A stretch of 37,200 nt of DNA, taken from an uncultured Bacillales bacterium (GTDB lineage Bacteria; Bacillota_I; Bacilli_A; RFN20; CAG-826). The stretch is taken from assembly GCA_946404585.1 (NCBI GenBank), contig CAMJEC010000002.1, positions 1-37,200 of the forward strand, written 5' to 3'. The notes beneath the pieces are model-generated. The model was not told the origin of the DNA. It saw only the letters and a list, made by a program, of their open reading frames with translations, and did not search any database. Below, one piece after another: positions 6,164-27,302 of the stretch (its first letter is position 1; the number at the start of each line of letters is the position of its first letter). The position numbers were made by a program, and so were the translations under genes.

Positions 6164-6354
6164 GATAAAAATTATAAAGGAAAAAATAATAAGAAAAATA
6201 GACCAACTTTCAATTTGAGAACGACACTTTCATTATTTTGTCTGAATCGAAAAAAATAGATAGAAATGAATACAAAAATATGACGACTATGCTATTTGAT
6301 TCAAAAGTTCCGATATTTATAGAACTTTTTATCAATTTTATTAATAATAAAGTT

Positions 6355-6401
6355 GGTGATAAATATGAAAAGAGAAAACGCCGCAAAAAGATACTATAAA
6401 A
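6355..6401 (+). repeat. 47-nt perfect direct repeat, copy 1 (SD + first 12 codons of small membrane protein gene)
   Basis: GGTGATAAATATGAAAAGAGAAAACGCCGCAAAAAGATACTATAAAA is identical at 6355..6401 and 6810..6856. The flanking bases differ on both sides. Confidence 0.95.
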
Positions 6402-6808: not shown

Positions 6809-6809
6809 A

Positions 6810-6856
6810 GGTGATAAATATGAAAAGAGAAAACGCCGCAAAAAGATACTATAAAA
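6810..6856 (+). repeat. 47-nt perfect direct repeat, copy 2
   Basis: See copy 1. Confidence 0.95.
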
Positions 6857-7263: not shown

Positions 7264-7289
7264 CATTTTAGGATGAAATTTTTTACAGT

Positions 7290-8381: not shown

Positions 8382-8408
8382 GGGGATATCTGATAATATC
8401 TCCTTTTT
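8382..8408 (+). terminator. Rho-independent terminator after GGDEF gene
   Basis: Stem GGGGATAT (8382..8389) / ATATCTCC (8396..8403) with one G-U pair, 6-nt loop, then TTTTT (8404..8408). Confidence 0.65.
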
Positions 8409-8415
8409 ATCTCTT

Positions 8416-9607: not shown

Positions 9608-11461
9608 ATGAAAAAGATTTTTAAGAGACTTACTTTTTTAGCGGTGCCATTCATGGTTTTAGGCTGCGCTGGTCCAATCGGTAGTAATAGTAACCAAAGC
9701 ACCTCTAATCAACAACCTTCTGTCAATAGTAGTAGCGCTAATCCTTCATCAGATAAGTCAAACAGCGCTAATCCAAGTGCTTCATCCAGTAATGGTGGTG
9801 ACCATACCCATACATTTGGTCAATGGAAGACAGAAAGCTTAGGCACAAAGATTAATGATGCCCGTTTCAAATATTCCACAATCAAATATAGAGAATGTAG
9901 TGTCTGTCATTATGAAGAAATAGATAGTCAACAAGCAGTCTTACCAGAAATTAGATTTGATTATAATCCTAATGATCCAAACGCTAACTTCGCTACTTCC
10001 GCTAGAAGTACCGATACAACTAGACCAAAAGTTAACGGTAAGTTAAGAATTACAAATGCTGGTGATAAGAACACCGCTAGTGCAATTCCTGACGTTGATA
10101 TAAAAGTCAGAGGTAACCAAACTGCTGGCTTTGATAAGAAAGGTTTCCAAATTAAATTTAATGCCTCTAAAACAAACCTCCTTGGTTTAAATGGTGGTAA
10201 GAAATTTAAGAAGTGGGTCTTATTAGCGGACGCTAAGGATACAACAATTTCCAGAACTGCTTTAGGTATGACAATGTCTAAAGGTGTTATCAGTGCTGAT
10301 TCAAATGTTTGGAGTTCTGACTTCACACCTGTTAGTGTTTACCTCAACGATAAATACTGGGGCATGTATATGCTCGCCGAACAAAAAGAAGTTAAAAACG
10401 GCAGAATCAAATTAGATGAACCAGAAGATGCAGATGAAAATCCAATTATGACCACTGACATCGGTTACTGTTTCGAATTAGACTACTACGCTAAAAACGA
10501 ACCAGCTAAAGGCGCGGATGGTGATCCAACTTTCTCTATCAACTATGGTAACTACTTTAAAAGTAGTGACTATAAGATTGAAAGCTGCTTAGCGAACTCT
10601 GGTTTAGGTCTTGTGTCAACATACACTATGAACTCAGATATCAATGATGGTCCAACAGATGCTCATACAACTGATGCAAATAGTAATCAAGTGAAATGGA
10701 TTAAAGCTAGATTACAAGCCTTATTCAATGTCTTAGGCGAAGCCGCTAAGAATAAAGTTGCTAAAGATATTAATAGTAACAACGAAGTTATTTCTACTTC
10801 CTTATCCGTTAGAAAAACAATCGAAAAGAACTTCGACCTTAACGCTTGGGCAGAAGGCTTCATTATCAATGCTGTCTGCTTACCACCAGATGTTGGTTAT
10901 TCATCATTCTATATGTCATTTAACAACGCTCCTAACGGTGATAAGAAATTAAGATATGATAACCCATGGGATTTCGATAGTAACTTCGGTAATAGAAGAA
11001 ACTTCATTGAAAAGCCAGATACAGCTTCTTCCAGTGGTGGTTGGGGTCAATCCTCATATGATCCATACTTCATGGATAGAACCGCGAATATGTGGTTACA
11101 ACTCTTAGGCAAACTTGACTTCTTCATGAATGACTATGTCAAACCAAAATGGAATGCTGCTAGAGAAAATGGCACATTTGAAGATATGGTTAAATTAGCC
11201 AAGACATACTATAAGTATTACGATAGTGAATACGCGAAGAACTTCGCTAAATGGACAACCACACAAGCCAGTGATAATAACGTTGGTAGTTACTTCAATG
11301 GTGATGGTGTTAATTCCGGTGAATTAAGAAAACCATTCGTGAACGTTAATGAACGTAAAGACGCACAAAAAGAAACACTCAGTTGGTTAGTCAAACGTGT
11401 CAATTATCTTGAAAAGAAATGGGCACCAGAAAAGAATAGAACACCTCTTTCCGCTGATTAA
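9608..11461 (+). CDS. CotH-like lipoprotein
   Basis: Signal peptide with lipobox VLGC and a Ser/Asn-rich linker. Motifs I recognise from CotH-family proteins: KKGFQIKF, DKYWGMYMLAEQKE, NPWDFDSNFG. Confidence 0.55.
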   Translation: MKKIFKRLTFLAVPFMVLGCAGPIGSNSNQSTSNQQPSVNSSSANPSSDKSNSANPSASSSNGGDHTHTFGQWKTESLGTKINDARFKYSTIKYRECSVCHYEEIDSQQAVLPEIRFDYNPNDPNANFATSARSTDTTRPKVNGKLRITNAGDKNTASAIPDVDIKVRGNQTAGFDKKGFQIKFNASKTNLLGLNGGKKFKKWVLLADAKDTTISRTALGMTMSKGVISADSNVWSSDFTPVSVYLNDKYWGMYMLAEQKEVKNGRIKLDEPEDADENPIMTTDIGYCFELDYYAKNEPAKGADGDPTFSINYGNYFKSSDYKIESCLANSGLGLVSTYTMNSDINDGPTDAHTTDANSNQVKWIKARLQALFNVLGEAAKNKVAKDINSNNEVISTSLSVRKTIEKNFDLNAWAEGFIINAVCLPPDVGYSSFYMSFNNAPNGDKKLRYDNPWDFDSNFGNRRNFIEKPDTASSSGGWGQSSYDPYFMDRTANMWLQLLGKLDFFMNDYVKPKWNAARENGTFEDMVKLAKTYYKYYDSEYAKNFAKWTTTQASDNNVGSYFNGDGVNSGELRKPFVNVNERKDAQKETLSWLVKRVNYLEKKWAPEKNRTPLSAD

Positions 11462-15877: not shown

Positions 15878-18562
15878 ATGAAAAATAATTTCATTACAAA
15901 AATCATCGGCGCAACGTTGGCTTTCGCTATGATGATCGGTGGTGCTGTTGGCATTAATTCTTTTAGGGAAGCAAAAGAAGTCAATGCTGACCCAGGAGAT
16001 GAGAGTGTTTATAAGGAAGCCAGGTTTGGTGCCGACTATAACAACAATGGTGTATCTTCTTATACAGATACATGGACAGCAACTTATAATGGATTCACTG
16101 TCTCTCTATCAAATTTCAACAACTACAACAATGGTTGGGCTTATGTAAAGTGTGGTAGAAAGAACAACGCTTCTGTCGCGACAATCAGCACATCAGCAGC
16201 AATAGATCAGCCGATAACTAAAGTGGATGTAACAATTGATTCCATCACAGCCGGTAAGGTAAATTCTATTAAACTTTTTAAATCTGCTGATGGCTCTAGT
16301 TGGGCGGAGGTTGGATCTTATGCCAAAGAATCTGGAACAAAAAGTGTTACATTAGCGAACCCTTCTACCGATCTTTATTACAAACTCGAATTCGATTGTG
16401 CGAGTAATACCGCCAATGGCTTTGTGCAAGTATCAAAAGTAGAGTACTATTACATTGAGCCTACTGTTGGAACAAGTTATACAGTGACTTTTAATTCTTT
16501 AGGCGGCGATAGCGTTAATGATAGAGTTGTTTCCGAAGGCGCAACAATTGCATCCTTACCAACCGCGGAAAAAGCAAAAAACACAACAACTCAAACAAAA
16601 TATGAATTCGAAGGATGGTACATTTTATCAAATTCAGATAATCCAAATAATCCTTCGTTCGAAGGTGCAACAAAATTCACTTCTTCTACACAAGTTAATA
16701 GCGACTTAACGCTTTATGCAAAATATACTGAAACACACTACAATGTAGTAACTTTTGATACAGACGGAGGCTCTGAAGTTGAAAGTGTCGAAGTTGATAA
16801 TGGTGGTACTGTTGCCAGACCTGCTAACCCAACAAAGAGTGGTTATCAATTCGATGGTTGGTATACAAACGAAGACGTTGAATATGATTTCAGTTCTACT
16901 ATCACAAACAGAAACTTCACCTTGTACGCAAGATGGACATCAATTGCCATTGAAGAAAATGGTCTATTTGTTAAAGTCACAAGTGCTGAAGATATGATTG
17001 ACGATGGTAAATATTTAATCGTGTACGAAAGTGGAAATGTTGCATTTAATGGCAGTTTAGACACACTTGATGTCGCCTCAAATACAGTTGATGTTGATTA
17101 CGACGGTGAATACATTTTGAAAGATAATAATACAAAAATTGCATATTTCACCATTAACACTACAAACAAAAAAATCATTTCTGCATTTGGACAATTTATC
17201 GGACAAGATACTTATGATAATGGTTTGGACACATCTGTTTCTGGAGGTGACGACAATAACTATAACAACGTTGTCTCATTCGACAATAATGGAAATGCAG
17301 TTATTACCGCAGCAGGAAATACAACTTTGAGATACAATACTGCGTCCAATCAGTTAAGATTTAGATATTACAAGTCTGGTCAAGAAGCAATCCAATTGTA
17401 TAAGTTTGTTAGAACATACACTGTCACATTTGATACTAATGATGGTTCAAATATTGATCCAGTAACTGTTCTTGATGGCAACTTATTAACTCTTCCAAAT
17501 AATCCTACTAAGGCGCCAGATGCCAATTATAACTATAGTTTTGTTGGTTGGTATACCGATGAAGAATTAATGGATCCATTTGTTTCTTCAACGCCTATCA
17601 CGGAAGATATCACTCTTTATGCAAAATATTCTGCAGAAGAAATTGACAACCCAGATGCATATTTGGGTTCAGCAACTTCTGTTGCGTCACTAAGTGCTAG
17701 AGAAACATCTGCCTATGGTAGCCCTAAAACAATTTCAAAAACAGTTGCCCAAGTATCTGGCACAACAACTAATGGTACGCAAGTTGCTGAACTTGTTTTG
17801 AATTCTTCGATCACTGTTTCAGTTAATGCTAACGGAAACAATGGTAAGGTTTATGCCAACGGCGCAGAATGGCGCGTTTATCAAGGTGATAATGCCCAAA
17901 TTAACGTTGCTGCAGCAAATAGTGGAAAAATTAGTTCAATCACATTTGAATTTGATGTTGATAAAGGCGGCGTTTTGAAATACGGCGATGAAACCGTTAA
18001 CAGTGGAGAAGCAGTAGAAATAAATAATTTATCCAGTGCGATTTTCACAGTAGGAAATTCAACAGCTGCTACAAATGGCCAAGTTAAAATTACTGCGATT
18101 AGCGTAACTTATTCTGAAAATGAAGTTACTGTCGATAACGTTTCTATGAAACTTGGATTGACTATTCCAGCAGAACAATGGGGACAAATTGCTGCAAAAT
18201 GGACCATTTCCAACTATGGTATAATGTTATTCAGAACTACTGAAGAAAGATTAGGATTAGTTTCTACTGTTGAAGAATACTTTACTGCAGACCCAGCAAA
18301 TGTTACTATCGTTGATAATGGAGATGGTACAGCTCCAGATCCTGATGGCGATGAATATAGATTCTCAGTGGTGATTAATTTTAGAACTACTGCAGCCTTT
18401 GCTAGATATTACTGTGCCGCACCATTTATTGTTATTAATGGCACATATTATTTCTTAGATGAAATGAGAGTATCAGTTAATTCATTAGCTAGTGATTATC
18501 TTGCAAATGGTGGATCAAACTTATCAACTCAAGCTTTGACATATTTGTCAACAACGCACTAA
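15878..18562 (+). CDS. Large secreted protein with three Listeria-Bacteroides (InlB B / Flg_new) repeats and a C-terminal domain shared with 18868..21945
   Basis: GGAG lies 6 nt upstream of the ATG. Signal peptide (...KEVNA/DP). Repeats end in GWY...TLYAKYT, GWYT...TLYARWT and GWYT...TLYAKYS. The C-terminal ~150 aa align with the C-terminus of the next large protein (TIPxxxW, YGxM, VEE, YCAAxxIVxNxTYYFLxE, SLA). Confidence 0.85.
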   Translation: MKNNFITKIIGATLAFAMMIGGAVGINSFREAKEVNADPGDESVYKEARFGADYNNNGVSSYTDTWTATYNGFTVSLSNFNNYNNGWAYVKCGRKNNASVATISTSAAIDQPITKVDVTIDSITAGKVNSIKLFKSADGSSWAEVGSYAKESGTKSVTLANPSTDLYYKLEFDCASNTANGFVQVSKVEYYYIEPTVGTSYTVTFNSLGGDSVNDRVVSEGATIASLPTAEKAKNTTTQTKYEFEGWYILSNSDNPNNPSFEGATKFTSSTQVNSDLTLYAKYTETHYNVVTFDTDGGSEVESVEVDNGGTVARPANPTKSGYQFDGWYTNEDVEYDFSSTITNRNFTLYARWTSIAIEENGLFVKVTSAEDMIDDGKYLIVYESGNVAFNGSLDTLDVASNTVDVDYDGEYILKDNNTKIAYFTINTTNKKIISAFGQFIGQDTYDNGLDTSVSGGDDNNYNNVVSFDNNGNAVITAAGNTTLRYNTASNQLRFRYYKSGQEAIQLYKFVRTYTVTFDTNDGSNIDPVTVLDGNLLTLPNNPTKAPDANYNYSFVGWYTDEELMDPFVSSTPITEDITLYAKYSAEEIDNPDAYLGSATSVASLSARETSAYGSPKTISKTVAQVSGTTTNGTQVAELVLNSSITVSVNANGNNGKVYANGAEWRVYQGDNAQINVAAANSGKISSITFEFDVDKGGVLKYGDETVNSGEAVEINNLSSAIFTVGNSTAATNGQVKITAISVTYSENEVTVDNVSMKLGLTIPAEQWGQIAAKWTISNYGIMLFRTTEERLGLVSTVEEYFTADPANVTIVDNGDGTAPDPDGDEYRFSVVINFRTTAAFARYYCAAPFIVINGTYYFLDEMRVSVNSLASDYLANGGSNLSTQALTYLSTTH

Positions 18563-18574
18563 GGAGAGAAGATT

Positions 18575-18697
18575 ATGAATGACGAAAAGAAATTTTTAAA
18601 ACCAGAATTAGAAATTATTTCATTTTCTAATGAAGATGTTATTCTTACAAGCAATGTTCTCGACGAAATTGATGAGGATAATCCAGTCGAGCATTAA
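18575..18697 (+). CDS. Unannotated 40-aa ORF, leader-like N-terminus (candidate RiPP precursor or partner peptide)
   Basis: Not in the ORF track (<60 aa). GGAGAG (18563..18568) lies 6 nt before the ATG. Product MNDEKKFLKPELEIISFSNEDVILTSNVLDEIDEDNPVEH, stop TAA at 18695..18697, followed by a terminator. The N-terminal 26 aa are homologous to 21951..22076. Confidence 0.6.
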   Translation: MNDEKKFLKPELEIISFSNEDVILTSNVLDEIDEDNPVEH

Positions 18698-18728: not shown

Positions 18729-18752
18729 GGCGGATTTTATTCCGCCTTTTTT
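18729..18752 (+). terminator. Rho-independent terminator
   Basis: GGCGGA (18729..18734) / TCCGCC (18741..18746), 6-nt loop, TTTTTT tail. Confidence 0.8.
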
Positions 18753-18867
18753 AGTTTCAATAAAACGCATATTTGTATTGATGGCTACAAACAAAAACAA
18801 ATATTTGCTGGAAAAACGCCAATAATAGTTATATTATTAAGTGCTCACTACTGTGACAAAATAAATT

Positions 18868-21800
18868 ATGAAAATGAATAAAAAAACAATTGCAATAACA
18901 TCTTTATTTACTGTTTTTGCTTTAGGTGTTGGCTTAATTATTAATGCCAGTGTTCCACATGCTGAAGTTGACGCGAGCAATTATTCAGTTAGATCTGTTC
19001 CAACAACTATAAATTTAAATGATGCCAGTGAATCCACAATTAGGGGTTATTATGCTTCTTTGAACAATCTTTCAGAAAATGAGAGAAAAGGCACTAATTT
19101 ATTGAAGAATTTAAAACCAATTCTTAAGAATGGCCAAAAGTATCTTTCATATGGAGGCAGCGCTACAACAGCTGTTTGGCAAGCATATGAAATCGTTGAT
19201 AGAGACTGGAATAAGTCTCCTGCATCTTCTATAAGTGGATATAATGCTCAAACAAATACAATTACTGGCTATGTCTACGGAAAAAGTAATTCTAATGTGG
19301 GTAGCAATCCATATATTCATGCTTTATATGTAAATCGAAACGTCGAAAATCAACAAAGAGCATGGGGAAACCACAATCAAGTTCAATGGGGAATTAACCA
19401 AGAACACCTTTGGGCTAAATCATGCGGCTTCCAAGACGAGTCTCCAGCAGCTGGTGCTAGAGGCGATTTAATGCATCTTTGGGCGGGAAATGGCAGAGTT
19501 AATGGCGATACTCATAGCAATTATTATTATGGATATGTTGACACAACAAAAACTTATAACAATGCTGGAAGTTACGCTTCAACATTATCAGGAAATTTGC
19601 GTGGTTACTCTAAAACACTTGGTGGATCAGTAACAGTATTTGAACCACAAGATTCTGATAAAGGCGATATTGCTAGAGCTATTTTCTATATGGCCGCTAG
19701 ATATAACTATTTATCTGGTAGCGATTCAGATGGAATTGATGCTGGCAACCCAAACCTTGAAATCGTTAACGATGTAACTTCTTGGCAAAATAATGGTTAT
19801 CAATCAACAACAACTAGAACTGGTAAGATGGGTATCATCCAAGATTTGCTTAAATGGAATGAAATTGATCCACCAGATGAATTCGAAATTCACAGAAACA
19901 ATCTTTGCTACAACAATTTTACTAAAAATAGAAACCCATTTATTGATTATCCAAGTTGGGCTAATGCTATTTGGGGAACAGTAGATGCAAATGGCAATTA
20001 CAACTCAACACCTGCTACTTTTGCCACTCCATCAACTGATGCAATTGGATCATCCACAGTTAATCCTGTGTTTAGTATCTCTAATACACAATTGAATTTA
20101 GAAGTTGGTGAAACTGCTACTCTTTCTGCCACAAACGCAGATGGTAACATTACTTGGTCAGTAGACAATAGTGCTATTGCAAGTTTAGATAAAACAACAA
20201 CCGTAAATAACGGAAATGTTACTATCACTGCATTAAGTGCTGGCTCTACAACAATTACCGCTACTAATGGTAATCAAAGTTTAACTTGTAATTTAACTGT
20301 TTCCGAACAGACAATGGAAATTTCTTTAGATAGAAGTACCGCTAGTATTGAAGTTGGTCAAACCATAACTTTAGTAGCAACCACAACTCCAAACAATGCA
20401 CAAGTTACATGGCTATCTAGTGATGAAGACGTGGCCATAGTATCAAATGGTGTTATAACTGGTTTATCTGCTGGTACTACTGTTATTACCGCTAAATTGT
20501 CAGACAGCGTGAAGGCTCAATGCACTGTTACCGTGACAAGTAATGGTGGAAGTGGCGAACAATCATCTATAGAAATCGCTACAAGTATTTCAGCTGGTGA
20601 TACAGTCTACTTAACAGCCAATTCTGCTGATATGCAATTTAATGGCATTTCTTCAACAAGCACTAAGTATGGTTTAGGTGTTTCGTTTGAAGATGAACCA
20701 GATACAGACACATATGCTCTTGAAGTTGCTACTGGCGCAAACAATGGAACGTATGCTTTCAAAATCAAAGAAGGAAATAATGCTAATAAATATCTCTCTT
20801 GGACATCAGGAAATAGTTTAACAACCGGCAACAGTATAGATACTAATAGTTCTTGGTATGTTGATTTTGATAATGCTGGGAATGTAACTATTAAAAACTC
20901 CGCAGATCAAACTAGAGTAATTTGGTGGAATGTTAGTGATCCAAGGTTTGCTTGCTATACCGGCAAGAGCAATGGTAGTAGCTACTATTTTACTCAATTA
21001 TGGAAAGTCGCTGCTCCAATCGAAGAAGAATATGTTGAAGACTATCTTGATTCGGTTGAATCACTCATGGCTATTGGTGGAAATGAAACATCTACTGGTT
21101 CAACACAAAACGGACCAAAAACAATCGATTTCTCCACTCTTGGATTAACCAGTGGTGCCCAATACACCGAACCATTCGATGGTGATGGTTTCACTGTTAC
21201 ATTCGCTGGTGGTGGCAACGATGGAAAGTATTATGATACTGGCACTGGCATAAGAACCTACGGCGATGGAACAATCACAATTCATTCTGAGGAAACGATA
21301 ACAGGAATCACAATGACTTGGAGTGGAACCAACAAGCCTGAAAATGGTAATGTAGTCGATGTTGGTACATATGACGCATCTACAGGTGTATGGACGGGTT
21401 CTGAGAACACCATTGTCTTCACAAGACCTAGTGGAAGCGGGCACTGGAGATTGCAAGCAGTTACTGTGACATTTGATAATTCTCAAGTACCAACTGTGAC
21501 AGTAGATCATGCATATATGGAATTTGGTATTACTATTCCAGTTTCCGATTGGGATGCCATCAACGCCAATGAAGATTGGGAAATTGCCGATTATGGTGTA
21601 ATGTTTGTTAAGAAAACAACATTAGAAGATACATATCATGCATCATCTGTTGAGGAAGCATATTACAATGGTGATTATCTTAAAGATGTTCATAAAGGTA
21701 ATGGTGAAAATCCATATAGTATTCTCGACATGTATATATTCACCGCGAAATTAAGTATTAATAACGAATCAAATTATGATGTTGTTTATTGTGCTGCTTC

Positions 21801-21945
21801 GTATATAGTAGTAAATGATACTTATTACTTCTTAAAGGAAGAAAGAGAATCAATCCGTTCTTTAGCCGCTCAATCTATTGGTCAAGGAACATCTGAATTA
21901 TCTGATGATGCATTAACCATCTTAAAAGGCAATTATGGAGGATAA
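18868..21945 (+). CDS. Large secreted endonuclease I-family nuclease fused to two Big_2 domains and a shared C-terminal region
   Basis: Signal peptide. Endonuclease_1 motifs NQEHLWAKS, DLMHLWAGNGRVNGDTHSN, EPQDSDKGDIARAIFYMAARY, NRNPFIDYPSWANAIWG. Two Big_2 repeats (LEVGETATLSA...ITALSAGSTTITA; IEVGQTITLVA...ITGLSAGTTVITA). The C-terminus is homologous to 15878..18562. There is no obvious SD, so the start (18868 or 18874) is uncertain. Confidence 0.85.
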   Translation: MKMNKKTIAITSLFTVFALGVGLIINASVPHAEVDASNYSVRSVPTTINLNDASESTIRGYYASLNNLSENERKGTNLLKNLKPILKNGQKYLSYGGSATTAVWQAYEIVDRDWNKSPASSISGYNAQTNTITGYVYGKSNSNVGSNPYIHALYVNRNVENQQRAWGNHNQVQWGINQEHLWAKSCGFQDESPAAGARGDLMHLWAGNGRVNGDTHSNYYYGYVDTTKTYNNAGSYASTLSGNLRGYSKTLGGSVTVFEPQDSDKGDIARAIFYMAARYNYLSGSDSDGIDAGNPNLEIVNDVTSWQNNGYQSTTTRTGKMGIIQDLLKWNEIDPPDEFEIHRNNLCYNNFTKNRNPFIDYPSWANAIWGTVDANGNYNSTPATFATPSTDAIGSSTVNPVFSISNTQLNLEVGETATLSATNADGNITWSVDNSAIASLDKTTTVNNGNVTITALSAGSTTITATNGNQSLTCNLTVSEQTMEISLDRSTASIEVGQTITLVATTTPNNAQVTWLSSDEDVAIVSNGVITGLSAGTTVITAKLSDSVKAQCTVTVTSNGGSGEQSSIEIATSISAGDTVYLTANSADMQFNGISSTSTKYGLGVSFEDEPDTDTYALEVATGANNGTYAFKIKEGNNANKYLSWTSGNSLTTGNSIDTNSSWYVDFDNAGNVTIKNSADQTRVIWWNVSDPRFACYTGKSNGSSYYFTQLWKVAAPIEEEYVEDYLDSVESLMAIGGNETSTGSTQNGPKTIDFSTLGLTSGAQYTEPFDGDGFTVTFAGGGNDGKYYDTGTGIRTYGDGTITIHSEETITGITMTWSGTNKPENGNVVDVGTYDASTGVWTGSENTIVFTRPSGSGHWRLQAVTVTFDNSQVPTVTVDHAYMEFGITIPVSDWDAINANEDWEIADYGVMFVKKTTLEDTYHASSVEEAYYNGDYLKDVHKGNGENPYSILDMYIFTAKLSINNESNYDVVYCAASYIVVNDTYYFLKEERESIRSLAAQSIGQGTSELSDDALTILKGNYGG

Positions 21946-21950
21946 CAATC

Positions 21951-22076
21951 ATGGATGAAAAAAGATTTATAAAACCAGAAGCTGACGTGGTTGCATTCAC
22001 ATTTGAAGATATCATCACAGCAAGCGGCGATAATCCTTGGGTTATTGGTGGTGCTACTGATGAAGAAACCCCATAA
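21951..22076 (+). CDS. Unannotated 41-aa ORF, leader-like N-terminus (candidate RiPP precursor)
   Basis: Not in the ORF track. GGAGG (21937..21941) lies 9 nt before the ATG. Product MDEKRFIKPEADVVAFTFEDIITASGDNPWVIGGATDEETP, stop at 22074..22076, terminator follows. It lies 72 nt upstream of the kinase/PqqD operon. Confidence 0.6.
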   Translation: MDEKRFIKPEADVVAFTFEDIITASGDNPWVIGGATDEETP

Positions 22077-22095: not shown

Positions 22096-22118
22096 ACGGA
22101 GTCAACTACTCCGTTTTT
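22096..22118 (+). terminator. Rho-independent terminator
   Basis: ACGGAGT (22096..22102) / ACTCCGT (22108..22114), 5-nt loop, TTTTT tail. Confidence 0.8.
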
Positions 22119-22148
22119 ATTTATAAAAAATACAAGTATAATAAGCAC

Positions 22149-22865
22149 ATGGTTAACTTTAAAATCGAAATTGCTGATATTGTCGTCGAGATTAATGCTT
22201 TTAATGAATCTACTTTAAAGTACTGTAGTGATTTTCTATCTGATAAAGAATCTAACTATGTCATTACTATGACTAAAGAAGATTTAGAAAACGAAAAGCA
22301 CATTAATGAAGACGGTAAAGTATACGCGAATGAAGAGATATCAGCGTTATATCGTAAGATCGCAGATATATTCGTAGAGGAAGATATCTTAGTGGTGCAT
22401 GGTTCATCCTTTAAAGTGGATACCTCCGCTTTTATTGTGACCGCGAGAAGTGGCGTGGGTAAATCCACTCATGTTAATTTATTAAAAGAGTATCTTAAAG
22501 ATAGATTTACTTATATTAATGACGATAAACCTTTATTAAAGATTAAAGGTGATAAGTTAACTCTCTATTCTTCTCCGTGGAACGGAAAAGAAAGAAGAGG
22601 TAATAATATAAATGCACCTTTAAGAAGTATTATCTTCCTTAATAGGGGCATCACTAATACATATAAGAAACTTGATAATAAAGAAGTCTATTTTAGATTA
22701 TTAAGTCAAATATATTTACCAAGAGATAAAACTAAAAGAGAAAAAGCCTTAAAGTTAATTGATATATTATTAAAGAGTGTTTCTTTCTATGAAATAAATG
22801 TTAATACTGATATATCAAGCGCAGAGATGACTAGTGAAAGGATTATTAATTATGAAATTAAATGA
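22149..22865 (+). CDS. HPr-kinase-like P-loop protein (RiPP-associated HprK-type kinase candidate)
   Basis: VVHGSSFKVDTSAFIVTARSGVGKSTH matches the HprK C-terminal-domain pattern (H-x-S/A ... G-x-SG-x-GKS). TATAAT (22137..22142) lies 6 nt before the ATG and there is no SD. Confidence 0.55.
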   Translation: MVNFKIEIADIVVEINAFNESTLKYCSDFLSDKESNYVITMTKEDLENEKHINEDGKVYANEEISALYRKIADIFVEEDILVVHGSSFKVDTSAFIVTARSGVGKSTHVNLLKEYLKDRFTYINDDKPLLKIKGDKLTLYSSPWNGKERRGNNINAPLRSIIFLNRGITNTYKKLDNKEVYFRLLSQIYLPRDKTKREKALKLIDILLKSVSFYEINVNTDISSAEMTSERIINYEIK

Positions 22866-23124
22866 GAACTTTTTAATCCATCAATCTGATAATGGTGAAA
22901 TCCTTATCCCAGTAGGGGATGAGACTAAAAGATTCCATGGTGTTGTTAAACTTAATGATACTGGTAGTGAAATTGTTCACTTATTAGAAAATAATGACTT
23001 ATCGCTAGAAGATGTTCTTAATCACTTTTATCAAGAATGCCCTAATGATGATAAAGAAGTAATTAAAAAGGGAGTAAGTGAGTTTATTAATAAGCTCGTC
23101 GAGATCAATGCCATCATCTTATAA
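22852..23124 (+). CDS. PqqD-family protein (RiPP recognition element, RRE)
   Basis: 90 aa. The pattern ...LIPVGDETKRFHGVVKLNDTGSEIVHLLENNDLSLEDVLNHFYQECPNDDKEVIKKGVSEFINKLVEINAI fits the PqqD winged-helix layout. ATG 22852 is preferred (AAAGGA upstream) over GTG 22834. It overlaps the kinase gene by 14 nt. Confidence 0.7.
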   Translation: MKLNENFLIHQSDNGEILIPVGDETKRFHGVVKLNDTGSEIVHLLENNDLSLEDVLNHFYQECPNDDKEVIKKGVSEFINKLVEINAIIL

Positions 23125-23539
23125 ATTTGAAGATGTATTAAATAAAGACGGAGAACTAATATTCACTAATGTTGGTTACTCTATGTATCCTCTAATAAGA
23201 CAAAGAGAGGATGTTTTAAGAATAGTTAAATCTGATAACTATAAGAAAGGTGATATTGTCTTATATAAATCTGAAATAGACCATTATGTTTTGCATAGAA
23301 TTCTTAAAATTAAGAAAGATAAAGTGATACTCGCAGGAGATTATAACTACTTTAAAGATAAACCTATCGCAAAAGATATGATTTTAGGCGTTTTAAGGAC
23401 TATTACTAAGAAGGACGGTAAAATAATCGACCTATCTAAAGATAAGAAGGCTAGAAGGTTCTTTTACACTAATTTCTTTTATATCAAAGCATTCTTCCAA
23501 ATAATTGGTAAGATATTACATATCAGGAAAGTAAAATAA
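23108..23539 (+). CDS. S24/S26-family serine peptidase (signal-peptidase/LexA-like fold)
   Basis: GYSMYP (nucleophile Ser), KKGDIVLY, HRILKIKK (candidate general-base Lys), ILAGDYN. ATG 23108 overlaps the PqqD gene by 17 nt; 23078 is an alternative start. Confidence 0.65.
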   Translation: MPSSYKFEDVLNKDGELIFTNVGYSMYPLIRQREDVLRIVKSDNYKKGDIVLYKSEIDHYVLHRILKIKKDKVILAGDYNYFKDKPIAKDMILGVLRTITKKDGKIIDLSKDKKARRFFYTNFFYIKAFFQIIGKILHIRKVK

Positions 23540-23611: not shown

Positions 23612-24514
23612 ATGAATAAATTCATATCCATTAAAGAAGCATCAATCAAGTGGAACATTTCGGAAAGAAGTGTTCGTAATTACTGCGCTCATGGAAGAGT
23701 TCCTGGTGCTGTTTTTAATAATGGTCGTTGGCTCATACCAGAAGAGGCTAAAAAACCATTAAGACTTAATGAGAAGAATAATAAGAATCATCTTTTGGAA
23801 AGACTAAGAGAAGAAAAGAAACATCAAATCAGTGGAGGAATATATCACAAGCTTCAAATTGATTTAACTTATAATTCAAACCACATTGAAGGCAGTGAAC
23901 TAACTCACGATCAAACCAGGTATATTTTTGAAACAAGAACCATTGGTTTAGAAAATAAAAACTCATCAGTAAGAGTGGATGATGTTGTTGAGACGATTAA
24001 TCATTTTTCTGCGATTGATAGGGTGATTGATTTTGCTAACTATGAACTTAGTGAGCCGTTTATCAAAGAACTCCATAAAATATTAAAAACAGGAACATCT
24101 GATTCCAGACTTCCATGGTTTGCCGTTGGTGAATATAAAAAAAGAGCAAATGAAGTGGGTGATATGGCCACTACATCTCCACAACTTGTTGGAAATGAAA
24201 TGAAAAAGCTTATTAGTGATTATAATCAAAAAGAGAACCATTCTTTTGAAGAGATAGTGGAATTTCATGTCAAATTTGAAAGAATTCATCCATTCCAAGA
24301 CGGTAATGGTAGAGTGGGTCGTTTGATTATTCTTAAAGAGTGTTTGAAAAACAACATTGTTCCTTTTGTCATCCTTGATAGCAAAAAGATGTTTTATTAT
24401 CGTGGGCTTAAAAACTGGGATCAGCAACGTGGTTGGCTATTAGATACTTGTTTAGATGGGCAAGATACAGTAAAAGCGTACCTAGATTATTTTGGAATAG
24501 TGTATCGTAATTAA
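23612..24514 (+). CDS. Fic-domain protein with N-terminal HTH (putative AMPylase / nucleotidyl- or phosphoryl-transferase)
   Basis: Intact Fic motif HPFQDGNGRVGR. N-terminal excisionase/MerR-like HTH (ISIKEASIKWNISERSVRNYCAHGRVPGA). Confidence 0.85.
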   Translation: MNKFISIKEASIKWNISERSVRNYCAHGRVPGAVFNNGRWLIPEEAKKPLRLNEKNNKNHLLERLREEKKHQISGGIYHKLQIDLTYNSNHIEGSELTHDQTRYIFETRTIGLENKNSSVRVDDVVETINHFSAIDRVIDFANYELSEPFIKELHKILKTGTSDSRLPWFAVGEYKKRANEVGDMATTSPQLVGNEMKKLISDYNQKENHSFEEIVEFHVKFERIHPFQDGNGRVGRLIILKECLKNNIVPFVILDSKKMFYYRGLKNWDQQRGWLLDTCLDGQDTVKAYLDYFGIVYRN

Positions 24515-24524: not shown

Positions 24525-26165
24525 ATGAGAAACAAAGAAACACTAAAGTTTATTACTAATAATATTAAAGGCAGTAAGAAGAAAGTTCTTATTCTTTCAA
24601 TAGTCCAAACCTTATTAGGTGTTTTAACAGTGGCCTTCTCTTTTATGCTTAAGCCTGTGATAACCGCTCTTGAAGATAAGAACAATGATTTATTAATTAG
24701 AAATGTCATTATTCTTGCTTCTATCGCGGTTGTTCTTATCATCTTACAAATCTTTTATCGCTTATATTACGAAGTCAGTTATATCGATATTGAAAATAGA
24801 CTTAAAAATAACTTATTTAAAACAATCTTAAATAAAGATTATCAAGAAATTAAGAATACCCATGATGAAGAATGGATTCATAGATTAACTAGTGATACCG
24901 CAGTGGTGGCTAATTCTATCCTATCCATCTTACCTTCATTATGCAGAATGGTGGTGCAATTGGTCTTAGCGCTCGCCGCTATCATTGTTTTATTCCCAGT
25001 CTTTGGTTTATCCTTATTACCATTTATCTTATTAGTTATTTTAATCACTTATTTTATGAGGAAACGCTTGAAAGCGTATCATCATTTAACGCAAGAAAAA
25101 GATGGCAGGGCTAAAGTGTTCTTATCTGAATCTCTTCAAGGTTTAGCGATTGTCCATTCATTCGTAAAGGAAGATGTCTTTACTAAGAAGAATGAACAAA
25201 ACTTAGAAGAATATAAGAAAGCGAGATTAAAAAGAAATACATTTAATGTTCTTTGTTCTGTCGGCTTTATCGTGGTCTATTATGCTTTCTATATTCTCGC
25301 GATTATTTTCTGTGGGCAAAAGATTATTAACGGTGATATGACTATTGGTTTCTTAAGTGCGATCGTCGCGTTACTATCTCAATTAACAGGTCCATTAGGT
25401 AATATTACTTCTATTATTCCTAAGTACTACTCCTTATTAGCGAGTGGTGAACGTTTAAGAATGGAAAATAATGTAGACTTCACTTATTTATCTAAGGATG
25501 AAATTAATAACTTCTATAATAATGAATTCAAATCATTATCCATTAATAACGTTTCTTATTCATATCTAGATAAATATGGTAATAAGGTAGAAGCCTTAAA
25601 GAACTTTAATTTAAAGATTAATAAAAATGAGAAGATCTTAATCAAAGGTCATTCTGGTGGTGGTAAGTCCACTTTATTTAAGTTAATGCTTTCTTTATTA
25701 ACTCCTGAAAGTGGTGAACTATTAATTAATGAAGAACCACTTAATAAAAGATATGAGAAACTATTTGCCTATGTTCCTCAAGATAACTTATTAATGGAAG
25801 GCACAATTAAGGAAGTAATTACTTTATTTAGCGATAATCCTAATAATGAATTATTTAATAAAGCACTAGATATTAGTGAATCATCATCTTTTGTTAATGC
25901 TTTAGCGAATAAAGGTGATACATATCTCAATGAAAAAGGTAGTGGCCTCTCCTTAGGGGAAATGGAAAGAATCGCAATCGCTAGAGCCATCTATAGTGAT
26001 TCTCCAATACTTCTTTTAGATGAATGCAGTGCTTCTTTAGACTCTGATACTGAAGCTAAAGTGATGTCTAATATCTTAAATATGCAAAATAAGACAATTA
26101 TCTTAATCTCACATCATAAATATGATGAGATACTATTTGATAAAGTCATCGATTTAGGTGAATAA
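24525..26165 (+). CDS. ABC exporter, fused TMD-NBD half-transporter
   Basis: Six predicted TM helices. Walker A GHSGGGKST, signature LSLGE, Walker B ILLLDE. No N-terminal C39 peptidase domain. AAGGAAG SD. Confidence 0.9.
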   Translation: MRNKETLKFITNNIKGSKKKVLILSIVQTLLGVLTVAFSFMLKPVITALEDKNNDLLIRNVIILASIAVVLIILQIFYRLYYEVSYIDIENRLKNNLFKTILNKDYQEIKNTHDEEWIHRLTSDTAVVANSILSILPSLCRMVVQLVLALAAIIVLFPVFGLSLLPFILLVILITYFMRKRLKAYHHLTQEKDGRAKVFLSESLQGLAIVHSFVKEDVFTKKNEQNLEEYKKARLKRNTFNVLCSVGFIVVYYAFYILAIIFCGQKIINGDMTIGFLSAIVALLSQLTGPLGNITSIIPKYYSLLASGERLRMENNVDFTYLSKDEINNFYNNEFKSLSINNVSYSYLDKYGNKVEALKNFNLKINKNEKILIKGHSGGGKSTLFKLMLSLLTPESGELLINEEPLNKRYEKLFAYVPQDNLLMEGTIKEVITLFSDNPNNELFNKALDISESSSFVNALANKGDTYLNEKGSGLSLGEMERIAIARAIYSDSPILLLDECSASLDSDTEAKVMSNILNMQNKTIILISHHKYDEILFDKVIDLGE

Positions 26166-27302
26166 ATGGGTAAAGAAACATATATCAAATATCTAAAAGA
26201 CTATCTACATCTATTCTCCCTTTATCTAAATAAAAAGGAAGAACCTTCTTTTAAGATTAATGAAAGTAACTTTAATATTTTTCTTAATCTATCTAAGAAG
26301 CATTCATTGACCGCTTTATTTTATAAGGTGGTTAAGGACACCAAAGTGGATATCAAAGAAGAATATCTAAAAGTATTAGAACAATATTATTTTTCTAATG
26401 TTCAGAAGCATGTCTTATTTGATAAAGAAAGAAAAGAACTGTTTGAATATTGTAATAAAAACAATATCATCCATCTTCCACTTAAAGGCATTATTTTAAA
26501 ACATTATTATCCTGACCCATACACTAGAGAATTCGCCGATAACGATATCTATTTCGGAGGTAACGATGAACTAATTAAAAAGTTCTTCGTTGATAGGGGT
26601 TATGAAGTAGAGCTATATCGGAAAAGTAATCATGACGTGTATTTAAAAAAGCCATGTTTGAACTTTGAAATGCATCGAGCCTTATTTGGGGAAACTGGTG
26701 ATAATGAAAAGGTTGTTAAATATTTTAAACATCCAAACATTAGATTAGTTAACCCATTAGCGATGGAAGCCTATTTACCACTAGATGATTTCTACGTCTA
26801 TTTCACCGCACATTCTTATAAGCATTTCCATATCGCAGGATGCGGACTTAGAACTCTCGTTGACTATTATGTTTTCTTAAAGAAAAACAAAGAAGATGAA
26901 TTACTAGATTTTAAATATATTAATAAACAACTAGAAAAGATGGATCTAGTGGATTTCTCTAATCAAATATCCACTTTAGCGCTTAAAGTCTTTGATGAAC
27001 AAGAACTATCTAATGAAGAAATGGAAACACTGTTATTTATCGCTAGCAGTGGGACATATGGAACCTTAGAAAATAGAGTAAATAAAGGTGTTAAAGAAAA
27101 AGGTAAAACTAGATATTTCTTTTCTAGAATATTCCCTCCATATAGATTCTATAAATCCGCTTATCCATGGGCATATAAGGTACCTATATTAATTCCTATT
27201 GCCTGGTTATGCAGATTATTTAGAATCCTATTTAAAAATCCAAAAAGAGCGACATCTGAATTAAAGATGATATCTAAATCCAAAGAAGAGAAAGATAAGT
27301 AA
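26166..27302 (+). CDS. Uncharacterised nucleotidyltransferase family protein (NTP_transf_5 / PF14907-like)
   Basis: The ATG directly abuts the ABC stop codon (TAAATG). The layout HSLTALFY ... IIHLPLKGIILKHYYPDPYTREFADNDIYF ... LNFEMHRALF matches the PF14907 pattern (KG..l...Y.dp..R...D.D, then veLH). Confidence 0.7.
   Translation: MGKETYIKYLKDYLHLFSLYLNKKEEPSFKINESNFNIFLNLSKKHSLTALFYKVVKDTKVDIKEEYLKVLEQYYFSNVQKHVLFDKERKELFEYCNKNNIIHLPLKGIILKHYYPDPYTREFADNDIYFGGNDELIKKFFVDRGYEVELYRKSNHDVYLKKPCLNFEMHRALFGETGDNEKVVKYFKHPNIRLVNPLAMEAYLPLDDFYVYFTAHSYKHFHIAGCGLRTLVDYYVFLKKNKEDELLDFKYINKQLEKMDLVDFSNQISTLALKVFDEQELSNEEMETLLFIASSGTYGTLENRVNKGVKEKGKTRYFFSRIFPPYRFYKSAYPWAYKVPILIPIAWLCRLFRILFKNPKRATSELKMISKSKEEKDK

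What the first reader, a model, noticed from the sequence alone, without database searches (positions are those of the whole stretch)
21951..22076. Unannotated 41-aa ORF with a leader-like N-terminus 72 nt upstream of the kinase/RRE operon: candidate precursor peptide
Seen: GGAGG lies 9 nt before ATG 21951, followed by 41 codons and then a clean terminator (22096..22118). The product is MDEKRFIKPEADVVAFTFEDIITASGDNPWVIGGATDEETP. It is too short for the supplied ORF track. Its first 25 residues align with the 18575..18697 product (13 identities, most other positions conservative). The last 14-16 residues are unrelated except for a DNP tripeptide. That conserved-leader, variable-core pattern is typical of RiPP precursors. 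FIKPEA (and FLKPEL in the paralogue) resembles the YxxPxL motif by which lasso-type leaders are bound by PqqD-like RREs, with F in place of Y. A precursor gene plus hairpin directly upstream of the enzymes is a common RiPP layout. Caveat: the ORF shares codon style and operon context with the preceding large secreted-protein gene, not with the kinase operon, so the juxtaposition could be fortuitous.
Basis: partly seen in the sequence, partly recalled or inferred. Interest (0 to 1): 0.8.

Follow-up and report, generated by a model that had tools for sequence, protein, structure and literature searches.

The report
Unannotated precursor peptide of phospho-peptide cluster
The 41-codon reading frame is a real small gene from a large, unnamed family of leader-bearing peptides, and it most likely supplies the substrate for the adjacent kinase/chaperone/peptidase/exporter genes, a variant of the recently described "linear polyphosphorylated peptide" pathway.

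Summary
ATG 21951 to TAA 22076 has GGAGG 9 nt upstream and a strong hairpin plus U-run downstream. A 40-aa paralogue lies at 18575-18697.

The peptide belongs to a large unnamed family: 347 representatives at 50% identity and 2007 clusters at 90%. The consensus is M..KK[FY].KPE.E[IV][IV].F..[ED]D[IV]I.TS, followed by a short acidic, Gly-rich, hypervariable tail.

The downstream genes match the lppKBSDN set of Popov et al. 2026 (LPP RiPPs) in content and order. They encode an HprK-fold kinase, a PqqD-type RRE, an SpI-like Ser/His/Asp peptidase, an ABC exporter and a PF14907 transferase. No lasso cyclase or B2 peptidase is present.

Three results link the family to these genes:
- In a context-blind metagenome sample, about half of the loci with enough flank carry them.
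- All three kinase-centred look-ups, from the window's own lineage, have family peptides upstream.
- The RRE residue that hydrogen-bonds the leader Tyr in the LppB crystal structure is Asp in all 17 RREs next to Tyr-only peptides. It is Gly, Ser or Cys in all 9 RREs next to Phe peptides, including this window.

The leader differs from the published LppA consensus. The gene almost always sits directly behind a large surface-protein gene, and this coupling is unexplained.

Verdict: a new variant of a known kind.

The parts
21937..21941 (+). Shine-Dalgarno GGAGG, 9 nt before the start codon. It lies inside the last codons of the upstream 1025-aa gene.
   Evidence: Read directly. 90 of 94 unique family members have an SD-like motif in this position.
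21951..22076 (+). 41-aa precursor-like peptide gene (lppA-like): MDEKRFIKPEADVVAFTFEDIITASGDNPWVIGGATDEETP
21951..22016 (+). Inferred leader (residues 1-22). It holds the RRE-binding motif F6-x-x-P9-x-A11 and the family-conserved F16, D20 and I22.
   Evidence: Family alignment invariants. Motif compared with the LppA and PbaA leaders. The leader/core boundary is inferred, not shown.
22023..22025 (+). Codon of Ser25, the only invariant residue of the family and the inferred phospho-acceptor. It lies 16 residues after the Pro; in LppA the phosphorylated Ser3 lies 15 after it.
   Evidence: Invariant in 88 diverse sequences. 101 of 346 tails contain no Ser or Thr at all. LppA Ser3 chemistry is from PMC13381572.
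22026..22073 (+). Variable acidic tail (GDNPWVIGGATDEETP), the remainder of the inferred core.
   Evidence: Family tails have a median length of 15 aa and are rich in G, D, E, P and N. 97% have net negative charge.
22096..22122 (+). Intrinsic-terminator-like hairpin (7-bp stem, 5-nt loop) followed by UUUUUAUUU.
   Evidence: -13.3 kcal/mol, z = -4.8. Structured downstream regions are general in the family.
18575..18697 (+). Paralogous 40-aa precursor-like gene (MNDEKKFLKPELEIISFSNEDVILTSNVLDEIDEDNPVEH), 12 nt after the 894-aa gene.
18729..18756 (+). Terminator hairpin plus U-run after the paralogue.
15878..18562 (+). 894-aa secreted repeat protein (Listeria-Bacteroides Flg_new repeats). The paralogous small gene is attached to its 3' end.
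18868..21945 (+). 1025-aa secreted protein (Endonuclease_1 + Big_2) sharing a C-terminal domain with the 894-aa protein. The 41-aa gene is attached to its 3' end.
22149..22865 (+). HprK/PEPCK-fold P-loop kinase (lppK-like).
   Evidence: Walker A motif SGVGKST. AF2 model pLDDT 89.2. All 50 best Foldseek PDB matches are PEP carboxykinase or HPr kinase/phosphatase.
22852..23124 (+). Discrete PqqD-type RiPP recognition element (lppB-like). It overlaps the end of the kinase gene.
   Evidence: PF05402 at 3e-9. A family profile hits TbiB1, PbaB1, TfuB1 and LppB structures.
23108..23539 (+). SpI-like (archaeal-type signal peptidase I / S24-S26) leader peptidase (lppS-like). It overlaps the end of the RRE gene.
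   Evidence: TIGR02228 at 4.2e-12 and PF00717. GxSMxP Ser, LHR His and D84 are conserved.
23612..24514 (+). Fic-domain protein inserted between the peptidase and exporter genes. It is an accessory, not part of the conserved set.
   Evidence: PF02661 at 7e-20. Present in L148 and L150, absent in L002 and L152.
24525..26165 (+). MsbA-like ABC exporter without a C39 peptidase domain (lppD-like).
26166..27302 (+). PF14907 nucleotidyltransferase-like protein (lppN-like).
   Evidence: PF14907 at 1.2e-32.

Best explanation
The 41-aa ORF and its 40-aa paralogue at 18575 are translated precursor peptides of an LPP-like RiPP pathway encoded immediately downstream.

Proposed mechanism:
1. The N-terminal leader binds the PqqD-type RRE (22852-23124) as an added beta-strand. 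Phe6 and Pro9 sit in the two pockets that hold Tyr-16 and Pro-13 of LppA.
2. The RRE presents the peptide to the HprK-fold kinase (22149-22865), which phosphorylates the invariant Ser25, possibly several times.
3. The SpI-like Ser/His/Asp peptidase (23108-23539) removes the leader just upstream of that Ser, around I22/T23.
4. The PF14907 enzyme may decorate the phosphate.
5. The ABC transporter exports a short, acidic, linear peptide of about 17-19 residues.
6. The precursor is transcribed with the large surface-protein gene upstream. The hairpin after it limits read-through into the enzyme genes.

Shown here: the gene is real and conserved, the gene content and order, the folds and catalytic residues, the statistical linkage, and the leader/RRE covariation.

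Inferred by analogy with Popov et al. 2026: binding, phosphorylation site, cleavage site and export. The biological role of the product is unknown.
For: 1. Gene set and order K-B-S-(Fic)-D-N equal lppKBSDN, with the precursor gene directly upstream as in lppA.

2. Kinase: AF2 model pLDDT 89. All 50 top PDB neighbours are PEPCK or HPr kinase/phosphatase.

3. RRE: PF05402. The family profile matches TbiB1 (1.4e-6), PbaB1 (6.9e-5), TfuB1 and LppB 9x8z (2.5e-3). The Asn equivalent to LppB N33 is conserved.

4. Peptidase: residues equivalent to LppS S29, H68 and D93 are present.

5. Leader: KKFLKPELEII and KRFIKPEADVV resemble the experimentally RRE-bound leaders MKKEWLKPELEVL (PbaA) and KLYARPMVL (LppA). 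The P-3 residue is Tyr in 194 and Phe in 149 of 346 family members, and never Trp.

6. Covariation: the RRE column aligned to LppB D70, which hydrogen-bonds the Tyr-16 hydroxyl, is Asp in 17 of 17 unique RREs next to Tyr-only peptides. It is Gly, Ser or Cys in 9 of 9 next to Phe-bearing peptides, across three separate non-Asp lineages. The window has Gly and Phe.

7. Linkage: in a context-blind metagenome sample, 11 of 22 unique peptides with at least 5 kb downstream have K, B, S or N genes in the locus. Distant examples are L014, L033, L056, L067, L090, L093, L097, L129, L142 and L146. All three kinase-centred look-ups have family peptides upstream, once ending 5 nt before the kinase ATG.

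8. The invariant Ser lies 16 residues after the Pro (15 in LppA), and 101 of 346 tails have no other Ser or Thr.

9. Translation: SD motif, purifying selection and family-wide ORF structure.
Against: - The leader does not match the published LppA consensus YxxPxVLxHQxIxFETxxS beyond [Y/F]xxP and the distal Ser. The spacing differs by one residue.
- About half of the sampled family members have no K, B, S or N gene within 5-10 kb (L016/L017, L047, L070, L074, L114, L120, L130, L144).
- In relatives, one or three unrelated genes separate the small gene from the kinase.
- The tightest and most general linkage is with the large upstream gene, not with the RRE.
- A strong terminator separates the small gene from the enzymes.
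- No binding, modification or mass-spectrometric evidence exists for this subfamily.
- The covariation count is not corrected for phylogeny.
Confidence: 0.75

Rival explanations
1. The small protein works only with the large secreted protein encoded directly upstream, for example as a secretion, folding, anchoring or regulatory partner of its C-terminal domain. Its position next to the kinase/RRE operon is incidental.
For: - 62 of 82 unique family members with at least 1 kb upstream lie a median 23.5 nt behind a same-strand ORF of at least 300 aa.
- The upstream proteins are diverse surface proteins (Flg_new, BspA LRR, beta-helix, F5/8-C, Big_2, GLUG, dockerin, SpaA). They share a few recurring C-terminal sequence types.
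- The pair occurs without nearby RRE genes.
- Spacing to the kinase varies from 72 nt to about 2.9 kb among close relatives.
Against: - This reading does not explain the RRE-type [Y/F]xxP leader.
- It does not explain the perfect Tyr/Phe against Asp/non-Asp covariation with the neighbouring RRE.
- It does not explain the roughly 50% co-location with genes that are rare in genomes.
- It does not explain tandem arrays of four small genes directly in front of a kinase with no large gene between them (L056).
- The two readings are not mutually exclusive.
Confidence: 0.12
2. It is a lasso-peptide precursor whose cyclase and B2 peptidase lie outside the window.
For: The leader closely resembles the paeninodin-like lasso leader MKKEWLKPELEVLDV. 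Kinase, PqqD and PF14907 genes are typical accessories of paeninodin-type clusters.
Against: - There is no asparagine-synthetase-like cyclase or transglutaminase-like B2 gene anywhere in the 37 kb window, or in the related loci examined.
- An SpI-like peptidase is present instead.
- With a core starting at G26 or S25 there is no Asp or Glu at positions 7-9.
- Family tails can be as short as a few residues.
- The P-3 residue is never Trp, which is nearly invariant in paeninodin-type leaders.
Confidence: 0.03
3. It is a double-glycine-leader bacteriocin or signalling peptide cleaved after IGG (residues 32-34) by the ABC transporter.
For: The window peptide and several relatives contain IGG near the C-terminus, and an ABC exporter is encoded nearby.
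Against: - The GG is absent from the window paralogue and from most of the family.
- It would leave a 7-residue product.
- The 546-aa transporter starts with its membrane domain and lacks a C39 peptidase domain. It aligns from residue 7 to about residue 144 of bacteriocin_ABC models.
Confidence: 0.02
4. It is not a gene. The frame is open by chance, or the conserved sequence is an RNA or DNA element at the 3' end of the large gene.
For: It was too short for the supplied ORF track, no family model in Pfam or NCBIfam matches it, and it is followed by a strong hairpin.
Against: - Conservation is at the amino-acid level across thousands of clusters, with many synonymous differences.
- The motif always sits at a fixed distance from an SD-preceded ATG in a short ORF.
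- Gene callers called it in many assemblies.
Confidence: 0.02

Closest known systems
Linear polyphosphorylated peptides (LPP), lppAKBSDN cluster of Paenibacillus alginolyticus and other Bacillales (Popov et al., Nat Commun 2026, PMC13381572)
   Same: - The enzyme set and order are the same: HprK-like kinase, discrete RRE, SpI-like Ser/His/Asp leader peptidase, MsbA-like exporter and PF14907 transferase.
- There is no macrolactam synthetase.
- A short precursor gene lies directly upstream of the kinase gene, one to three per locus.
- The precursor has a conserved N-terminus with an aromatic-x-x-Pro RRE motif, a conserved Ser about 15 residues after the Pro, and a variable C-terminus.
   Different: - The leader consensus is [FY]xKPExE[IV][IV]xFxx[ED]D[IV]IxTS rather than YxxPxVLxHQxIxFETxxS, and the Pro-to-Ser spacing is 16 rather than 15.
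- The window has Phe instead of Tyr, and its RRE lacks the Tyr-binding Asp (Gly instead).
- The inferred core is short (about 15-20 aa) and strongly acidic, rather than 40+ aa and Gly/Asn/Lys-rich.
- The precursor gene is attached to a large surface-protein gene rather than lying within capsule loci.
- The hosts are uncultured gut and rumen Bacillota.
- The paper lists SpI + RRE pairs from Clostridia (SSN clusters 4 and 9) with 'other' RREs and precursors 'not determined'. The present family is a good candidate for those.
Paeninodin-type phosphorylated lasso peptides (PadeA/PbaA with B1 RRE, HprK-like kinase, nucleotidyltransferase)
   Same: The N-terminal leader half is nearly the same (KK-aromatic-LKPELE[VI][LI]). 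[quoted passage not shown]
   Different: There is no cyclase and no B2 cysteine peptidase. The aromatic residue is Tyr or Phe, never Trp. No ring-forming acidic residue sits at core positions 7-9, so the product would stay linear.
SipW-type (archaeal/ER-type) signal peptidase I
   Same: The peptidase next to the RRE scores best against TIGR02228 and keeps Ser/His/Asp residues.
   Different: It is small (143 aa) and overlaps the RRE gene. By analogy with LppS it acts on a cytoplasmic RRE-bound leader rather than on Sec signal peptides.

Membership tests
LPP (linear polyphosphorylated peptide) RiPP cluster | Discrete PqqD-type RRE with the conserved Asn (LppB N33) that fixes the leader's Pro kink | tested here: met
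   PF05402 at 3e-9. The profile hits LppB 9x8z, PbaB1, TbiB1 and TfuB1. The Asn column is nearly invariant and present in the window ('VVKLNDTG').
LPP (linear polyphosphorylated peptide) RiPP cluster | RRE Asp (LppB D70) that hydrogen-bonds the leader Tyr | tested here: not met
   The window RRE has Gly at the aligned column. The window leaders have Phe instead of Tyr. Across 26 unique RREs, Asp goes with Tyr and non-Asp with Phe, without exception.
LPP (linear polyphosphorylated peptide) RiPP cluster | HprK-like kinase | tested here: met
   No Pfam or NCBIfam hit above cutoff, and only weak profile hits to the HprK P-loop. The AF2 model (pLDDT 89.2) has only PEPCK and HPr kinase/phosphatase among its top 50 PDB matches. 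Homologues carry precomputed PF27840.
LPP (linear polyphosphorylated peptide) RiPP cluster | SpI-like (archaeal-type signal peptidase I) leader peptidase with a Ser/His/Asp triad | tested here: met
   TIGR02228 at 4.2e-12 (46.2 bits, below the 51.85 cutoff) and PF00717. GxSMxP, LHR and D84 align with LppS S29, H68 and D93 as read from the paper's primers.
LPP (linear polyphosphorylated peptide) RiPP cluster | MsbA-like ABC exporter and PF14907 NTP-transferase in the same operon | tested here: met
   PF00664 + PF00005, and PF14907 at 1.2e-32.
LPP (linear polyphosphorylated peptide) RiPP cluster | Absence of macrolactam synthetase and B2 peptidase | tested here: met
   None is found among the window ORFs of at least 115 aa that were scanned against Pfam. 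This holds only for the 37 kb window.
LPP (linear polyphosphorylated peptide) RiPP cluster | Precursor of 35-200 aa directly upstream of the kinase gene, with conserved N-terminus and variable C-terminus | tested here: met
   The 41-aa gene ends 72 nt before the kinase gene. The family has a conserved 25-27 aa N-terminus and hypervariable tails.
LPP (linear polyphosphorylated peptide) RiPP cluster | Leader consensus YxxPxVLxHQxIxFETxxS | tested here: not met
   Only aromatic-x-x-Pro-x-aliphatic and the distal Ser are shared. 'VLxHQxIxFET' is replaced by 'E[IV][IV]xFxx[ED]D[IV]I', and the Pro-to-Ser spacing is 16 rather than 15. No canonical LppA-like ORF exists in the window.
LPP (linear polyphosphorylated peptide) RiPP cluster | Kinase-dependent polyphosphorylation of core Ser3 and RRE-dependent leader cleavage | not testable with these tools
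   This needs expression and mass spectrometry.
Lasso peptide precursor | Asparagine-synthetase-like cyclase and B2 (transglutaminase-like) peptidase in the cluster | tested here: not met
   Absent from the window and from related loci.
Lasso peptide precursor | Core starting with Gly/Ala/Ser/Cys and carrying Asp or Glu at position 7, 8 or 9 | tested here: not met
   With the core starting at G26, positions 7-9 are I, G, G. With the core starting at S25 they are V, I, G (read).
Lasso peptide precursor | Leader [Y/W]xxPx[L/V/I/F/A] bound by a discrete B1 RRE | tested here: inconclusive
   The motif is present with Phe (FIKPEA, FLKPEL). Binding was not tested. Covariation with the RRE supports recognition.
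Double-glycine-leader peptide (bacteriocin / pheromone) | Conserved GG cleavage site and a C39-peptidase ABC transporter | tested here: not met
   The GG is not conserved in the paralogue or the family. The transporter lacks the N-terminal peptidase domain.

The most novel reading that the evidence does not exclude
The small-gene family is a very large, so far unrecognised branch of RRE-dependent linear phospho-peptides in gut and rumen Bacillota. Its precursors are systematically co-transcribed with big surface proteins. The mature acidic phospho-peptide would act together with those proteins, for example as a secreted ligand, anchor or modulator of their C-terminal domains. That would make it a RiPP dedicated to a surface-protein partner rather than an antibiotic or signal.
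Probability: 0.15. Interest if true: 0.85.

Novelty: new variant of a known kind. Interest (0 to 1): 0.62.

Why it matters
LPP RiPPs were described only in 2026, mostly from Bacillales. Their final product and role are unknown, and the precursors of the related SpI + RRE clusters in Clostridia were left undetermined.

This finding adds four things:
- It identifies a candidate precursor family of thousands of unannotated 30-70 aa genes in gut and rumen metagenomes.
- It gives a distinct leader consensus that could be used directly for genome mining.
- It extends the Tyr/Trp leader-discrimination rule of that paper to a third state: Phe paired with loss of the RRE Asp.
- It reveals a conserved physical coupling of the precursors to large surface-protein genes. 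That coupling is a concrete lead to the unknown biological role.

It also shows that standard annotation misses the substrate gene of these clusters.

Tried and rejected
- Pfam and NCBIfam scans of the window peptides, other family members and canonical LppA found no family. The only hit was a sub-threshold match to the StsA sactipeptide leader.
- A single-sequence homology search found only five close relatives. The profile search was needed.
- The one genome-contig scan used a pattern that was too narrow. It returned only one MAG, Bacilli bacterium RGIG8901.
I replaced it with my own degenerate DNA pattern.
- phmmer of the RRE alone against PDB gave only influenza haemagglutinin noise. The family profile worked.
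- The kinase profile against PDB gave only insignificant HprK P-loop hits. A structure model settled the fold.
- AF2 of the shared C-terminal domain of the two large proteins, with only two sequences, gave pLDDT 50, so I ran no fold search.
- An HMM of that C-terminal domain finds it only in the window's own lineage, so it is not the universal partner of the small gene.
- Literature searches for motif strings and for 'ScmC' found nothing relevant.
- Lasso, double-glycine and non-coding readings were considered and rejected for the reasons given under rival explanations.
- Read-through fusion to the large gene was rejected. The small ORF is in the same frame as its upstream gene at 18575 but in a different frame at 21951.
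Full report
**1. The observation**

The region reads exactly as described.
- GGAGG lies at 21937-21941, and ATG 21951 follows 9 nt later.
- The ORF has 41 codons, encoding MDEKRFIKPEADVVAFTFEDIITASGDNPWVIGGATDEETP, and its stop ends at 22076.
- The upstream 1025-aa gene (18868-21945) stops 5 nt before the ATG.
- The next gene starts at 22149, 72 nt after the stop.
- A 7-bp GC-rich hairpin at 22096-22114 followed by UUUUUAUUU folds at -13.3 kcal/mol (z = -4.8; none of 200 shuffles folds as well).
- The paralogue at 18575-18697 (MNDEKKFLKPELEIISFSNEDVILTSNVLDEIDEDNPVEH) lies 12 nt after the 894-aa gene. It shares 13 identities in the first 25 residues and has its own terminator.
- A six-frame motif scan finds only these two copies in the window.

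**2. It is a real gene and a member of a very large family**

A direct homology search found only five close relatives. A profile of the peptides, scored against 1.84 billion representatives, found 347 proteins at E <= 1e-3. All were 31-72 aa long. A wider alignment found 2007 clusters at 90% identity, all unnamed and without Pfam domains.

The family consensus is M..KK[FY].KPE.E[IV][IV].F..[ED]D[IV]I.TS(G), followed by a hypervariable tail. In 88 diverse members Ser25 is invariant, and P9, F16, D20 and I22 are nearly so.

I scanned metagenome contigs with a degenerate DNA pattern carrying about 45 bits of information. Nearly every hit sits at the start of a 29-66 aa ORF.
- 90 of 94 unique members have an SD-like motif before an in-frame ATG.
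- The 70 nt after the stop fold much better than shuffled sequence (median -19.9 against -9.5 kcal/mol).
- Among orthologues of the window genes, pN (0.11-0.33) is below pS (0.32-0.76) over the leader codons in all but the closest pair.

Family tails have a median length of 15 aa and are rich in Gly, Asp, Glu, Pro and Asn. 97% carry net negative charge.

**3. What lies downstream**

| Coordinates | Product | Evidence |
|---|---|---|
| 22149-22865 | P-loop protein, HprK/PEPCK fold | no family hit above cutoff; AF2 pLDDT 89.2; all top 50 PDB neighbours are PEP carboxykinase or HPr kinase/phosphatase |
| 22852-23124 | PqqD-type RRE | |
| 23108-23539 | archaeal-type signal-peptidase-I-like protein | keeps the GxSMxP Ser, LHR His and an Asp |
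| 23612-24514 | Fic protein | |
| 24525-26165 | MsbA-like ABC exporter without a peptidase domain | |
| 26166-27302 | PF14907 protein | |

The K/B and B/S gene pairs overlap. No asparagine-synthetase-like cyclase or transglutaminase-like peptidase occurs among the scanned window ORFs.

**4. Comparison with the literature**

Popov et al. (Nat Commun 2026, PMC13381572) describe 'linear polyphosphorylated peptides'. Their clusters run lppA (precursor), lppK (HprK-like kinase), lppB (RRE), lppS (SpI-like leader peptidase), lppD (exporter) and lppN (PF14907).
- Each cluster has one to three precursors of 35-200 aa.
- The precursors have a conserved N-terminus (YxxPxVLxHQxIxFETxxS) and a variable C-terminus.
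- Tyr-16 and Pro-13 are needed for RRE binding.
- Cleavage is after Thr-1, and Ser3 is polyphosphorylated.

The window operon has the same content and order, plus an inserted Fic gene that is absent from some relatives.

From the paper's primer table, the LppA leader is MEENTKREQKLYARPMVLSQQPVRFET|AQSWNK. The co-resident lasso leader PbaA is MKKEWLKPELEVLDVNQTM. The window peptides resemble the PbaA N-terminal half closely (KKFLKPELEII). They share with LppA the aromatic-x-x-Pro motif and a conserved Ser at nearly the same distance from the Pro (16 against 15). Otherwise they do not match the LppA consensus.

The paper's data set is mostly Bacillales. Its SpI + RRE pairs from Clostridia (SSN clusters 4 and 9) have 'other' RREs and precursors marked not determined. 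Those RREs look like the ones found here next to the small genes.

**5. Is the small gene linked to the RRE operon or to the large gene?**

It is linked to both.

*Closest relatives.* The small gene stays 5 nt behind the endonuclease/Big_2 gene. Zero, one or three unrelated genes separate it from the kinase.

*Context-blind metagenome sample (100 unique peptides).*
- 62 of 82 with at least 1 kb upstream have a same-strand ORF of at least 300 aa ending within 170 nt (median gap 23.5 nt).
- 11 of 22 with at least 5 kb downstream have at least one homologue of K, B, S or N in the locus.
- This is a very strong enrichment, because such genes occur at most a few times per genome. That background figure is general knowledge and was not measured here.

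*Distant examples.* L014 (an NCBI MAG), L142 and L146 repeat the pattern: large gene, small gene, (peptidase or a 133-162 aa protein), kinase, RRE, peptidase, exporter, PF14907. L056 has four tandem small genes directly before the kinase.

*Kinase-centred look-ups.* All three (72-75% identical kinases) have family peptides upstream. In one, the small gene ends 5 nt before the kinase ATG.

*Counter-examples.* Several loci with 7-10 kb on both sides have none of these genes (L016/L017, L074, L114, L120, L130). In L144 a transposase follows the two pairs. These may be orphan precursors served in trans, but I could not test that.

**6. A direct sign of peptide-RRE pairing**

In the LppB-LppA crystal structure, Asp70 hydrogen-bonds the hydroxyl of leader Tyr-16, and D70A weakens binding. 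A profile of the RREs found here aligns to LppB (9x8z), PbaB1, TbiB1 and TfuB1. This places the 'KDV' Asp on D70, and PbaB1 has Gln at that position.

Among 26 unique RREs:
- all 17 whose neighbouring peptides have only Tyr carry Asp;
- all 9 whose neighbours include Phe peptides carry Gly (the window lineage), Ser (L097, L129, L142) or Cys (L146).

Losing the hydroxyl on the leader therefore goes with losing its acceptor on the RRE, in three separate non-Asp lineages. The P-3 residue is Tyr 194 times, Phe 149 times and never Trp in 346 family members. This fits the LPP side of the Tyr/Trp discrimination rule and adds a third state. The count is not phylogenetically corrected.

**7. Mechanism proposed**

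The 41-mer is translated from the transcript of the large gene. Its leader binds the RRE through Phe6, Pro9 and Ala11. The kinase phosphorylates the invariant Ser25. Ser25 is the only invariant residue, it sits where LppA Ser3 sits, and 101 of 346 tails have no other Ser or Thr. The SpI-like peptidase removes the leader two or three residues upstream. The PF14907 enzyme may modify the phosphate, and the exporter releases a short acidic linear peptide. The hairpin after the small gene would set the precursor-to-enzyme transcript ratio.

Only gene content, folds, motifs, linkage and covariation are shown here. Every biochemical step is inferred by analogy.

**8. What remains unexplained**

I do not know why the precursors are attached to large surface-protein genes.
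- The upstream proteins are diverse: Flg_new, BspA-type LRR, beta-helix, F5/8 type C, Big_2, GLUG, dockerin and SpaA.
- They fall into a few groups with recurring C-terminal sequences: '...LVKALYxYxxAAxxY', '...WYARGYVxYxD...HTVYSD', and the window type '...YCAAxYIVxNxTYYFLxE...'.
- The window-type C-terminal domain is confined to its own lineage, and I could not model it confidently.
- A 133-162 aa protein without known domains often follows the small gene in relatives, but it is absent from the window.

**9. Verdict**

The system is best filed as a new variant of the LPP kind of RiPP. It has a distinct and very abundant precursor family that current annotation misses.

It is not a lasso system and not a double-glycine peptide system. 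I do not call it a canonical LPP member, for two reasons: the leader consensus and the RRE Asp, both defining features, are not met, and the chemistry is untested.

Noticed in passing
window 23612-24514: A Fic-domain gene with an N-terminal HTH sits between the peptidase and exporter genes. The same insertion is in L148 and L150 but not in L002 or L152. It is therefore a variable accessory, possibly a mobile toxin-like module, inside the operon.
   Followed up: partly
L002:10177-10578; L014:4415-4822; L016:10147-10635: A 133-162 aa protein with no Pfam domain follows the small gene by about 50 nt in many relatives, including loci with no kinase or RRE nearby. It is absent from the window. It could be a further partner of the peptide.
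   Followed up: partly
L056:1366-1956 (- strand): Four tandem family peptides (33-38 aa) lie directly upstream of a kinase-RRE-peptidase set with no large gene between them. Other loci carry two copies (L040, L062, L092, L098, L126, L130, L139).
   Followed up: no
L019:10001-10174 and L021:66-182: A 57-aa family member has Ala in place of the conserved Pro and a Cys-rich tail. It lies inside an SPbeta-like prophage region (YonK/YonJ/YonG genes) right after an integrase gene. One IMG/VR viral contig also carries a typical member.
   Followed up: no
window 21484-21942 and 18113-18559; upstream proteins of L014, L016, L027, L029, L045 and others: The large proteins in front of the small genes end in a few recurring C-terminal sequence types: '...LVKALYxYxxAAxxY', '...WYARGYVxYxD..HTVYSD', and the window type '...YCAAxYIVxNxTYYFL...LSxxALTxL'. 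Their N-terminal domains are unrelated. The window type was not modelled confidently (pLDDT 50).
   Followed up: partly
window 22137-22148: The kinase ATG (22149) has no Shine-Dalgarno-like motif in the preceding 15 nt. A perfect TATAAT lies at 22137-22142, 6 nt before it. This hints at a leaderless transcript, or at translation only from read-through mRNA.
   Followed up: no
RRE alignment (A6), column +4 from the Asp70-equivalent: The position aligned to LppB F74 is Phe in all RREs paired with Phe-type leaders. It is mostly Ile or Val in those paired with Tyr-type leaders. This is a second covarying pocket residue.
   Followed up: no
window 9608-11461; also L003, L144, L150, L152: CotH-kinase-family genes recur near the surface-protein/peptide/LPP-like region in the window and in its relatives. 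Tyrosine-phosphatase-like (Y_phosphatase3) genes accompany them in L144, L150 and L152.
   Followed up: no
family members MEKYIKPEMEIIEF...: There is a weak sub-threshold match (E = 0.047) of the leader to the NCBIfam StsA sactipeptide RiPP model. This suggests the KPE.E[IV][IV] segment is a more widely shared RRE-binding leader type.
   Followed up: no
window 57-9051: The 5' part of the window holds a hybrid histidine kinase/response regulator, two GGDEF proteins and an HD-domain (HD_5) protein. This is an ordinary cyclic-di-GMP signalling neighbourhood.
   Followed up: no
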